From the NCBI RefSeq assembly GCF_056712565.1, contig NZ_CM160072.1: a stretch of 64,000 bases of DNA. The stretch is one strand, 5' to 3'. Positions within the stretch are counted from its first letter, which is position 1, and each line of letters starts with the position of its first letter. Below are positions 44,810-45,497 of the stretch, one piece after another. The notes beneath the pieces are model-generated. The model was not told where the DNA came from. It ran no database searches and saw nothing but the letters and a program-made list of their open reading frames with translations. The translations under genes and the position numbers were made by a program.

Positions 44810-45154
44810 ATGACTCAAAACTATGAACTGATTGTGAAAGGGATCCGCAATTTTGAGAATAAAGTTACGGTAACTTTAGCATTACAGGACAAAGAACGCT
44901 TTGACGGTGAAATTTTTGACCTGGACATCTCGCTGGACCGTGTTGAAGGTGCTGCGCTGGAGTTTTATGAGGCAGCGGCCAGAAGGAGCATCAGACAGGT
45001 CTTCCTGGATGTCGCTGCCGGGTTATGTGAAGGGGATGAGCAGTCGCCGGAAAAGCGCCCCGTAATTTTAGAGGCGCAGAATGTATGGATAACCTACAAA
45101 GGAAAGCTACCGGGAAGGATTACTGGTTCCCTGAAGACTCCGCCGAAATGGTAG
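44810..45154 (+). CDS. Lysis-cassette protein (YdfR/DUF1327-like)
   Basis: 114-aa ORF between holin and endolysin, as ydfR sits in Qin (from memory). Confidence 0.45.
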   Translation: MTQNYELIVKGIRNFENKVTVTLALQDKERFDGEIFDLDISLDRVEGAALEFYEAAARRSIRQVFLDVAAGLCEGDEQSPEKRPVILEAQNVWITYKGKLPGRITGSLKTPPKW

Positions 45155-45392
45155 TTTTGCCAGCATAATTTTCTTCCAGCAATGCCGCCAGCCACTTGAA
45201 AGAATTTTGTTGTTCCTGGGACCATTTGGGGTTGCGTGATTCAAAATGAATGGATGCCAGCGTTGGCAGCATTTGCTCCCTGGGAATTGATAAGGCCAGA
45301 TGTGAAAATGCAACAGTGAGGGCATTTACATCATCCCGAAGCCTGGAAATGCAGTCGAGCAACTCCTGTAGAGAAATGGTGCTATTGTCCAT
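45120..45392 (-). CDS. Hypothetical protein, antisense-oriented within the lysis cassette
   Basis: 90-aa ORF with AAGAGGA RBS on the minus strand. Confidence 0.35.
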   Translation of the reverse strand: MDNSTISLQELLDCISRLRDDVNALTVAFSHLALSIPREQMLPTLASIHFESRNPKWSQEQQNSFKWLAALLEENYAGKTTISAESSGNQ

Positions 45393-45497
45393 AAATAATC
45401 CTCTTGATTGTCTTTACCTTTTCCCCGCCTGATTCAACAGGCCGGGACAGATAAACATATCCAGGGTTCAGAAACCGATAAATCCTGATAAATATCC

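What the first reader, a model, noticed from the sequence alone, without database searches (positions are those of the whole stretch)
45107..45400. Minus-strand gene embedded in the plus-strand lysis cassette
A 90-aa ORF with a good RBS (AAGAGGA) runs antisense between the YdfR-like gene and the endolysin, overlapping the 3' end of the former. An opposite-strand gene here would be transcribed against late transcription and could act as a lysis-timing or lysogeny-maintained factor.
Basis: inference. Interest (0 to 1): 0.35.

Follow-up and report, generated by a model that had tools for sequence, protein, structure and literature searches.

The report
Small accessory gene inside prophage lysis cassette
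The opposite-strand ORF is a real, conserved small gene (ybl58 family, function unknown) that some E. coli prophages carry as an optional add-on between two lysis genes; it looks like an ordinary prophage accessory ("moron") gene, not a dedicated lysis-timing device.

Summary
The ORF exists at 45120-45392 (minus strand, 90 aa, ATG). Its AAGAGGA ribosome-binding site lies 6 nt upstream, and it overlaps the ydfR 3' end by 35 nt. A 90-codon ORF alone means little, since about 40 are expected by chance in 64 kb. This one is a real gene. RefSeq annotates it as WP_001351274.1 (UniProt name Ybl58), and it matches phrog_2411 over its full length. It is intact in 26 of 27 DNA variants, with dN/dS of 0.16-0.32. 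Homologues at about 30% identity are single-copy chromosomal genes in Serratia and Sodalis, between dinI and bssS. It is optional: about 278 bp (roughly 45147-45427) is missing from K-12 Qin, O157 and other cassettes. The product is an acidic, soluble three-helix protein (pLDDT 83) with no informative fold, Pfam or literature match. In all four prophage contexts found, the gene lies antisense to the late operon. It always abuts a late-strand gene ending in a shared tail (KG..ITGSLK.PP), which is unexplained. No convincing promoter was found, and expression is untested. My verdict is a moron-type accessory gene of unknown function. The lysis-timing idea is not supported. Interest is modest.

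The parts
45120..45392 (-). ORF90 / ybl58-family CDS (90 aa; RefSeq WP_001351274.1, 'hypothetical protein')
   Evidence: ORF listing. PGAP annotation in S88. phrog_2411 match 1-90/90, E 5.5e-55. Intact in 26 of 27 unique DNA variants. dN/dS 0.16-0.32 over codons 1-78. Distant protein homologues found.
45399..45405 (-). Shine-Dalgarno AAGAGGA, 6 nt upstream of the ATG
   Evidence: Read from the sequence. An SD is kept in all lineages (AAGAGGA / AGAGAGGA / TGAGGAG) in the upstream alignment.
45407..45437 (-). Weak promoter candidate: -35 TTGAAT (45437-45432), 19-nt spacer, -10 GACAAT (45412-45407; TACAAT in most lineages, TATAAT in the iha-linked copy)
   Evidence: PWM scan across lineages and alignment. 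The score does not exceed shuffles in the window lineage, and the predicted start would fall inside the SD. This is only a candidate.
45454..45482 (-). Second weak promoter candidate: -35 TTTATC (45482-45477), 17-nt spacer, -10 TATGTT (45459-45454)
   Evidence: Position-conserved in all lineages, including L084. It scores about the median of shuffles, and the -10 is also present in an O157 cassette that lacks the ORF.
45051..45077 (-). Hairpin GCGCCTC / 9-nt loop / GGGGCGC followed by TTTT, 43 nt after the ORF stop and inside ydfR (antisense): candidate terminator
   Evidence: Found in the downstream alignment and fold. It is retained, with a T.G to T-A change, in L084, where the surrounding ydfR sequence has decayed. 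The rule-based scan missed it (9-nt loop, only 4 T). It also lies in ORF-less cassettes as part of ydfR.
45147..45427 (.). Indel segment (about 278 bp) present here and absent from ORF-less cassettes. It carries the SD, the start codon and codons 1 to about 80 of the ORF.
   Evidence: DNA alignments with SW07163, JJ1887 and O157 strain 3384. K-12 Qin has ydfR overlapping rrrQ with nothing between them.
44810..45154 (+). ydfR (DUF1327), the converging late-strand neighbour
   Evidence: Pfam PF07041, E 6.9e-44. PGAP calls it 'YdfR family protein'.
45098..45154 (+). C-terminal tail of YdfR, KGKLPGRITGSLKTPPKW*, encoded opposite the last codons of ORF90. The same tail motif ends the converging gene in the three other prophage contexts.
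   Evidence: Translations. The motif search found no other hit in 2.1 million translated residues.
44590..44805 (+). Class II (S21-type) holin
   Evidence: Pfam PF04971, E 9e-33; PGAP annotation.
45498..46032 (+). Lysozyme (endolysin) gene, frameshifted pseudogene, diverging from ORF90 across 105 bp
   Evidence: Two ORF pieces. Pfam PF00959 on the second piece. PGAP marks it 'frameshifted'.

Best explanation
The minus-strand ORF at 45120-45392 is a genuine protein-coding gene of the uncharacterised ybl58 family. It is an optional accessory (moron-type) gene at the junction between ydfR and the endolysin gene in S21-type lysis cassettes of Escherichia lambdoid prophages. It encodes a small, acidic, soluble three-helix protein with a leucine heptad in helix 1 and a disordered tail. 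Because it points against the late operon, it must be transcribed on its own. I infer that it is made from the repressed prophage, and that its transcript ends at the hairpin inside ydfR. I also infer that the protein acts by binding another protein, of host or phage origin, and has no enzymatic or membrane role. Its relatives are ordinary chromosomal genes in Serratia and Sodalis, so the phage copy is most likely a captured host-type small regulator and not a part of the lysis machinery. Shown: the gene is real, it is under purifying selection, it is optional, and the product is a soluble helical protein. Inferred: expression in the lysogen, the terminator, and action by protein binding.
For: Real gene: PGAP annotates it. 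It matches phrog_2411 over its full length. The ORF is intact in 26 of 27 unique DNA variants from 83 loci. dN/dS is 0.16-0.32, with 59 of 108 variable sites at codon position 3. The only other frame with low dN/dS is the geometric shadow on the plus strand. That frame has stops in two lineages and no conserved start. Full-length homologues at 25-35% identity exist in Serratia, Sodalis, Chania and Citrobacter. AF2 gives pLDDT 83 with a 59-sequence alignment. Optional add-on: a clean indel of about 278 bp separates it from SW07163, JJ1887, O157 and K-12 Qin cassettes. The ORF body is at 1337 places in 1206 genomes, against 6082 places in 2870 genomes for the adjacent ydfR module. Orientation: it is antisense to the late genes in 159 of 159 Escherichia viral-contig loci, and in the Citrobacter, L091 and L087 prophage contexts. 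Not lysis-specific: it occurs between tail genes, near terminase, beside iha and AIDA genes, and in the conserved slot pyrC-dinI-X-bssS-solA in Serratia and Sodalis. Soluble: pI 4.95, GRAVY -0.36, longest hydrophobic run 7 residues. Own signals: a conserved SD and a hairpin plus T-tract conserved in L084. Definition and precedent: morons are extra DNA with their own promoter and terminator, expressed from repressed prophages (PMC3594210). Lambda bor and lom are expressed in lysogens (PMC7067206).
Against: No sigma-70 promoter stands out. The consensus scan found none upstream. The best PWM candidates score at or below what shuffled sequence gives. One would start transcription inside the SD, and the other is also present in an ORF-less cassette. 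The terminator candidate has only four T and lies in sequence that also belongs to ydfR in ORF-less cassettes. GC content is only slightly lower than in the neighbours (0.43-0.45 against 0.51-0.55). No expression data and no literature exist. The window lineage has His where the family has a nearly invariant Tyr31. The strict association with a conserved tail on the converging gene hints at a link to the neighbour that a plain 'host-directed moron' does not explain.
Confidence: 0.6

Rival explanations
1. ORF90 and the tail-bearing late-strand gene (here YdfR) form a functional pair. The small helical protein, made in the lysogen, would bind or neutralise the late protein through its conserved C-terminal tail. 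Alternatively, convergent overlapping transcription would make the two mutually exclusive, giving a lock or switch between lysogenic and late expression.
For: In all four independent prophage contexts the family gene converges on, and abuts or overlaps, a late-strand ORF ending in KG-x6-7-(I/L)(T/F)G(S/D)(L/I)-x-x-P-x2-4-stop. These are YdfR, the Citrobacter 63-aa protein, the L091 71-aa protein and the L087 partner. The motif has no other hit in 2.1 million translated residues. Codon differences in the tail are synonymous in the late-strand frame, while ORF90's own tail varies freely and even acquires stops. K-12 YdfR has no adjacent ORF90 and lacks the tail.
Against: In E. coli the tail-type ydfR module is about 4.5 times more frequent than the ORF, so the late protein does not need ORF90. 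Chromosomal family members in Serratia and Sodalis have no such partner. Physical overlap alone would make the tail travel with the gene. The motif was defined after the fact from the same four sequences.
Confidence: 0.2
2. This is the first reader's idea: a lysis-timing regulator, for example a cytoplasmic antiholin-like factor acting on the S21-type holin or the endolysin.
For: In Escherichia it is always located between ydfR and the endolysin gene. A 55%-identical copy in Citrobacter lies just upstream of a different holin. Small cytoplasmic helical lysis regulators are known (T4 RIII, from my own knowledge).
Against: Its orientation excludes co-transcription with the lysis genes. Family members occur in tail and terminase regions and in chromosomal slots unrelated to lysis. 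The protein has no membrane segment. It is absent from most otherwise identical cassettes. It also persists in a prophage whose endolysin and terminase genes are frameshifted.
Confidence: 0.1
3. The relevant product is the RNA. The transcript, antisense to the ydfR 3' end, would act as an antisense RNA against late transcripts of the resident or a superinfecting related phage.
For: The transcript must overlap at least 35 nt of ydfR, and about 100 nt if it ends at the hairpin. There is a precedent in STnc6030, an antisense RNA within prophage late genes that excludes superinfecting phage (PMC7067206).
Against: Selection is clearly on the protein: dN/dS is low, homologues at 30% identity have the same length, and the fold is confidently predicted. 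No Rfam family matches. The chromosomal homologues have nothing to be antisense to. An RNA role could at most be secondary.
Confidence: 0.07
4. The ORF is a spurious shadow of plus-strand coding sequence or of decayed sequence.
For: Forty ORFs of this size are expected by chance. The plus-strand frame sharing third positions shows equally low dN/dS and is open in some lineages.
Against: That plus-strand frame has stops in the window lineage and in L084, lacks a start, and gives Cys/Ser-rich peptides. The minus-strand ORF is open in every lineage and has distant protein homologues in other genera, where DNA similarity is gone.
Confidence: 0.03

Closest known systems
Prophage 'morons', in particular lambda bor (opposite-strand gene next to the lysis genes, expressed in lysogens)
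   Same: It is extra DNA relative to sibling phages. It is a single small gene embedded in the late region and oriented against late transcription, as bor is (bor's orientation is from my own knowledge). It has its own translation signals and a downstream hairpin. Morons are defined this way in PMC3594210, and bor and lom expression in lysogens is cited in PMC7067206.
   Different: Bor is an outer-membrane lipoprotein, whereas this is a soluble acidic helical protein with no known function. Neither its promoter nor its expression in lysogens has been shown. It sits inside the cassette, between ydfR and R, not after Rz. Its GC content barely differs from its neighbours.
phrog_2411 / UniProt 'Ybl58' / RefSeq WP_001351274.1 and WP_000370546.1 (E. 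coli B Rac prophage)
   Same: It is this very family: a full-length HMM match and identical sequences in public records.
   Different: Nothing differs; the family is simply uncharacterised. It has no Pfam, NCBIfam or PADLOC model and no paper.
Chromosomal dinI-X-bssS gene of Serratia, Sodalis and related Enterobacterales
   Same: It is homologous at 25-35% identity, has the same length and shares the conserved core ELL..I..L....N.L..AFSYLAF...E......L..ES. It is a stand-alone transcription unit after the dinI terminator.
   Different: It sits in a conserved chromosomal slot, not on a prophage, and it has no converging tail-bearing partner.
AroQ-class chorismate mutase (three-helix fold)
STnc6030 of Salmonella prophage BTP1 (antisense RNA in late genes)
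   Same: Both are minus-strand transcription units embedded in a prophage late region that overlap a late gene (PMC7067206).
   Different: STnc6030 is a non-coding RNA longer than 700 nt. Here the selected product is a protein.

Membership tests
phrog_2411 / Ybl58 protein family | Full-length significant match to the family profile, or sequence identity to named members | tested here: met
   phrog_2411 matches 1-90 of 90, E 5.5e-55. The exact sequence is in the collection under the names 'Ybl58' and 'hypothetical protein'. It is WP_001351274.1 in S88.
Moron (accessory transcription unit in a prophage) | Extra DNA compared with closely related phages | tested here: met
   A clean indel of about 278 bp separates it from SW07163, JJ1887, O157 strain 3384 and K-12 Qin. 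The ORF is at 1337 places against 6082 places for the neighbouring ydfR module.
Moron (accessory transcription unit in a prophage) | Base composition different from the surrounding genes | tested here: inconclusive
   GC is 0.43-0.45 over the ORF 5' half against 0.51-0.55 in the neighbours. The difference is small.
Moron (accessory transcription unit in a prophage) | Own promoter | tested here: inconclusive
   The consensus scan found none. PWM candidates are no better than shuffles in the window lineage. One collides with the SD, and the other is also present in an ORF-less cassette.
Moron (accessory transcription unit in a prophage) | Own terminator | tested here: inconclusive
   A 7-bp GC-rich hairpin plus TTTT lies at 45077-45051. 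It is conserved in L084 despite decay of the flanks. However, the U-tract is short, and the sequence is also part of ydfR in ORF-less cassettes.
Moron (accessory transcription unit in a prophage) | Expressed from the repressed prophage | not testable with these tools
   No transcript data are available. No paper mentions the gene, and K-12 lacks it.
Holin / antiholin membrane proteins | At least one transmembrane segment | tested here: not met
   GRAVY is -0.36, the longest hydrophobic run is 7 residues and pI is 4.95. The AF2 model is a soluble three-helix protein.
AroQ chorismate mutase | Conserved catalytic Arg/Lys/Glu/Gln residues and a match to the family profile | tested here: not met
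Known anti-phage defence proteins (PADLOC) | Match to a defence-system profile | tested here: not met
   No family matches at E up to 1.
DUF1327 / YdfR (considered for the converging partners in other phages) | Match to PF07041 or the YdfR PHROGs | tested here: not met
   The Citrobacter 63-aa and L091 71-aa partners give no DUF1327 or YdfR-PHROG hit and no BLASTP alignment beyond the 12-residue tail.

The most novel reading that the evidence does not exclude
The ybl58-family gene and the conserved C-terminal tail module of the converging late gene are a two-part unit that moves between late-operon sites of enterobacterial prophages. A lysogeny-expressed helical protein would bind or counteract a late protein through that tail, or convergent overlapping transcription would make the two mutually exclusive. 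Either way this would be a previously undescribed prophage lock or switch, possibly explaining what YdfR-type proteins in lysis cassettes do.
Probability: 0.15. Interest if true: 0.6.

Novelty: new member of a known kind. Interest (0 to 1): 0.3.

Why it matters
The gene is present in roughly a fifth of complete E. coli genomes, including ExPEC/APEC lineages and the laboratory B strains. It belongs to a family that has no Pfam model, no structure and no paper. Showing that it is a real, selected protein, and not an annotation artefact, marks it as a legitimate target for the study of prophage accessory genes. If it is expressed in lysogens, it is one more candidate for prophage-conferred host modulation. 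The family's chromosomal copy next to dinI and bssS in Serratia and Sodalis points to an ancestral cellular role. The repeated antisense placement next to a conserved tail on a late protein is a concrete, testable lead into the unknown function of YdfR-type proteins. None of this is surprising in kind, because opposite-strand accessory genes in late regions are a known phenomenon.

Tried and rejected
1. Antisense shadow of a longer plus-strand YdfR extension. H44 and the long YdfR PHROGs prompted this. I rejected it because H44 is a deletion variant, and because the plus-strand frame has stops in two lineages and no start.

2. dN/dS as a discriminator between strands. It cannot separate the ORF from the frame sharing third positions, so I used stops, start/SD conservation and remote homologues instead.

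4. Sequence-based family searches. Pfam, NCBIfam, PADLOC and PDB sequence searches gave no hits.

5. SOS control via dinI co-transcription in Serratia. I rejected this because a strong terminator follows dinI and there is no LexA box before the gene.

6. Converging partners as YdfR homologues. This is not supported beyond the tail.

7. The iha-linked copy as evidence for selection outside phages. It is uninformative. It is a captured cassette fragment with lysozyme and ydfR remnants, and its 57 genomes are nearly clonal.

8. More prophage contexts. Two IMG/VR scans, the GTDB representative scan and the phage collection returned only the E. coli cassette context. Two genome-scan attempts failed for lack of a conserved stretch.

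9. Literature. There is nothing on ybl58, YdfR with holin, or DUF1327 function.

10. Rfam. No RNA family matches the region.

Full report
**What is there**

The window is an E. coli chromosome of the S88 / APEC O1 / ATCC 11775 type, 100% identical over the region. The finding lies in the lysis cassette of a defective lambdoid prophage. On the plus strand the cassette has these genes:
- a class II (S21-type) holin at 44590-44805
- a YdfR/DUF1327 gene at 44810-45154
- a lysozyme gene at 45498-46032 that is frameshifted
- a small phrog_6632 ORF
- Rz and Rz1

The minus-strand ORF runs from 45392 to 45120. It is 90 aa and starts with ATG. AAGAGGA lies 6 nt upstream at 45405-45399, and the ORF overlaps the last 35 nt of ydfR. 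Size alone proves nothing: shuffled copies of the window contain about 40 ORFs of at least 90 aa.

**Is it a gene?**

Yes, for several reasons.
- NCBI's pipeline already annotates it as WP_001351274.1, 'hypothetical protein'. Some records call it Ybl58.
- It matches phrog_2411 over its full length, E 5.5e-55.
- Among 83 fetched loci there are 27 distinct DNA versions, and 26 keep the 90-codon frame intact.
- Over the 78 codons that do not overlap ydfR, dN/dS is 0.16-0.32. This holds even against a copy with dS of about 1.1. Variable sites concentrate at codon position 3, with 22, 27 and 59 at positions 1, 2 and 3.
- The plus-strand frame that shares third positions shows the same low ratio, as geometry dictates. 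However, it carries stops in the window lineage and in the most divergent copy, has no conserved start, and translates to Cys/Ser-rich peptides.
- An exhaustive profile search and a second profile search found full-length homologues of 81-97 aa at 25-55% identity. They come from Citrobacter, Serratia, Sodalis, Chania, Gibbsiella and others, far beyond any DNA similarity.

**What the protein looks like**

With a 59-sequence alignment AlphaFold gives pLDDT 83. The model has three helices (8-34, 38-52, 59-81) and a disordered tail at 81-90. Leucines 11, 18, 25 and 32 form a heptad. The protein is acidic (pI 4.95) and hydrophilic, with no membrane segment.

**It is an optional insert**

K-12 Qin has essQ-ydfR-rrrQ with ydfR overlapping rrrQ. 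Cassettes from SW07163, JJ1887 and an O157:H7 strain have ydfR followed by 50-63 bp and then the lysozyme gene. Alignments show a clean indel of about 278 bp, roughly window 45147-45427. The extra DNA carries the SD, the start codon and codons 1 to about 80. The last ten or so codons, which form the disordered tail, simply read out into the antisense of the ydfR end.

In complete E. coli genomes the ORF body is found at 1337 places in 1206 of 5426 genomes. The adjoining ydfR module is found at 6082 places in 2870 genomes. A plaque-forming phage (Chlobot) and the Rac prophage of E. coli B carry the ORF.

**Where else the family occurs**

In Escherichia viral contigs it is always in this position and always opposite to ydfR and the lysozyme gene, in 159 of 159 loci. 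Other contexts are varied:
- A 63%-identical copy lies next to iha in SMS-3-5-type islands. The flanks show remnants of the lysozyme start and of ydfR, so this is a captured cassette fragment.
- Other copies lie beside an AIDA-type autotransporter gene.
- A Citrobacter freundii prophage has a 55%-identical copy antisense just upstream of a different holin.
- Another prophage has a copy antisense between tail genes M and L.
- Another has a copy antisense upstream of the terminase genes.
- In Serratia and Sodalis it occupies a conserved chromosomal slot, pyrC-dinI-X-bssS-solA. There it follows the dinI terminator and is its own unit.

The family is therefore not tied to lysis. The phage copies look like a captured host-type small protein.

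**Signals for expression**

The SD is conserved. Downstream, a GC-rich hairpin plus TTTT (45077-45051) is kept in the iha-linked copy even though the surrounding ydfR sequence has decayed. That fits a terminator, but the U-tract is short, and the same sequence is part of ydfR in ORF-less cassettes.

No promoter is convincing. The consensus scan finds none. A PWM scan gives two position-conserved but weak candidates. The first is TTGAAT-19-GACAAT (TACAAT in most lineages), which would start transcription inside the SD. The second is TTTATC-17-TATGTT, whose -10 is also present in an ORF-less O157 cassette. Whether and when the gene is transcribed remains open, and these tools cannot test it.

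**An unexplained regularity**

In all four independent prophage contexts, the family gene converges on a late-strand ORF that ends with the same tail:
- YdfR: ...KGKLPGRITGSLKTPPKW
- Citrobacter 63-aa protein: ...NGETRNEKITGSLRAPIKL
- L091 71-aa protein: ...KGNIFSDQIFGDLKKPPSY
- L087 partner...KGGQLRYKRLTGDILIPLES

The motif occurs nowhere else in 2.1 million translated residues of the loci held. It was, however, defined from these same sequences. Codon differences in the tail are synonymous in the late-strand frame, while ORF90's own tail varies freely.

The partners are otherwise not detectably related. K-12 YdfR shares only residues 1 to about 77 with this YdfR and lacks the tail. Chromosomal family members have no such partner. 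Either the gene and the tail module descend and move together, or the gene inserts preferentially at such ends. A functional link is possible but unproven. It is not obligatory from the side of ydfR, because most tail-type ydfR genes lack the ORF.

**Verdict**

This is a real, already annotated but uncharacterised gene: a new member of the known class of prophage accessory (moron-type) genes, oriented against late transcription in the same way as lambda bor. The 'lysogeny-expressed factor' reading is plausible but unproven, and the 'lysis-timing' reading is not supported.

The most likely mode of action is a small soluble helical protein that binds another protein, made independently of the late operon. 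I put confidence in the overall reading at about 0.6, and at about 0.9 that it is a real coding gene. Interest is modest (0.3). The tail linkage is the one feature that could make it more than routine.

Noticed in passing
window 45098-45154 (+); L103 5239-5300; L091 5261-5320; L087 4283-4345: Otherwise unrelated late-strand proteins that converge on the ybl58-family gene share a C-terminal tail, KG-x6-7-(I/L)(T/F)G(S/D)(L/I)-x-x-P-x2-4-stop. The motif has no other hit in 2.1 million translated residues of all loci held.
   Followed up: partly
window 44810-45154 compared with L099 4055-4366 (K-12 ydfR): YdfR is modular. Residues 1 to about 77 (the DUF1327 core) are shared with K-12 YdfR, but the C-terminal 35-40 residues differ completely. 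The PHROG hits show the same N-domain fused to C-terminal parts of 105-296 aa total length.
   Followed up: partly
window 45498-46032 (+): The lysozyme (endolysin) gene is frameshifted at a G-run near 45655-45662. In the identical S88 record the large terminase gene is also frameshifted, so the prophage is defective while the small minus-strand gene stays intact.
   Followed up: partly
window 45451-45497 (+): There are three direct repeats of GATAAA(N0-3)ATCC immediately upstream of the lysozyme start codon, with no obvious SD. They are conserved in cassettes with and without the ORF and in the iha-linked remnant.
   Followed up: no
window 46123-46155 (+) and 46156-46329 (+): A strong terminator-like hairpin (13 pairs plus T-run) sits between the lysozyme gene and Rz. 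It is followed by a small ORF matching phrog_6632 (unknown function), annotated as WP_000459345.1.
   Followed up: no
window 47103-47528 (-) and the next minus-strand gene: Two more opposite-strand accessory genes (DUF1398 and YlcI/YnfO family) lie just after Rz, the same pair as ydfO/ynfO in K-12 Qin.
   Followed up: no
L084 1826-2560 (E. coli PKF4; same in SMS-3-5 and 55 other genomes): The region directly upstream of the siderophore receptor/adhesin gene iha in this island type is a fragment of a phage lysis cassette. It holds a ydfR remnant with the hairpin, an intact ybl58 homologue and the first ~30 nt of a lysozyme gene. The small gene and iha are divergently arranged, 324 bp apart.
   Followed up: partly
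L097 4638-5730; L100, L106: In Serratia and Sodalis the family gene occupies a conserved slot between dinI (which has a clear LexA box, CTGTATAAATAAACAG) and bssS. These are two other small regulatory proteins whose homologues are also often carried by prophages.
   Followed up: partly
window 45300-45302 (codon 31 of the ORF): The window lineage has His31 where the family has a nearly invariant Tyr (AFSYL motif). The protein may be slightly atypical or impaired in this lineage.
   Followed up: no
window 44523-44551 (+); upstream region about 40400-44400 (from the S88 annotation, L001): A terminator-like hairpin lies just upstream of the holin gene. The Q antiterminator gene is about 3.4 kb upstream, followed by a DNA methyltransferase gene, three tRNA genes (Ile, Arg, Arg) and gene fragments. 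This is the layout in which Stx phages carry stx, but no toxin genes are present here.
   Followed up: no
L091 4856-4873 (-): In the prophage where a family member sits between tail genes M and L, a perfect intrinsic terminator on the late strand lies between the inserted gene and the start of gene L.
   Followed up: no
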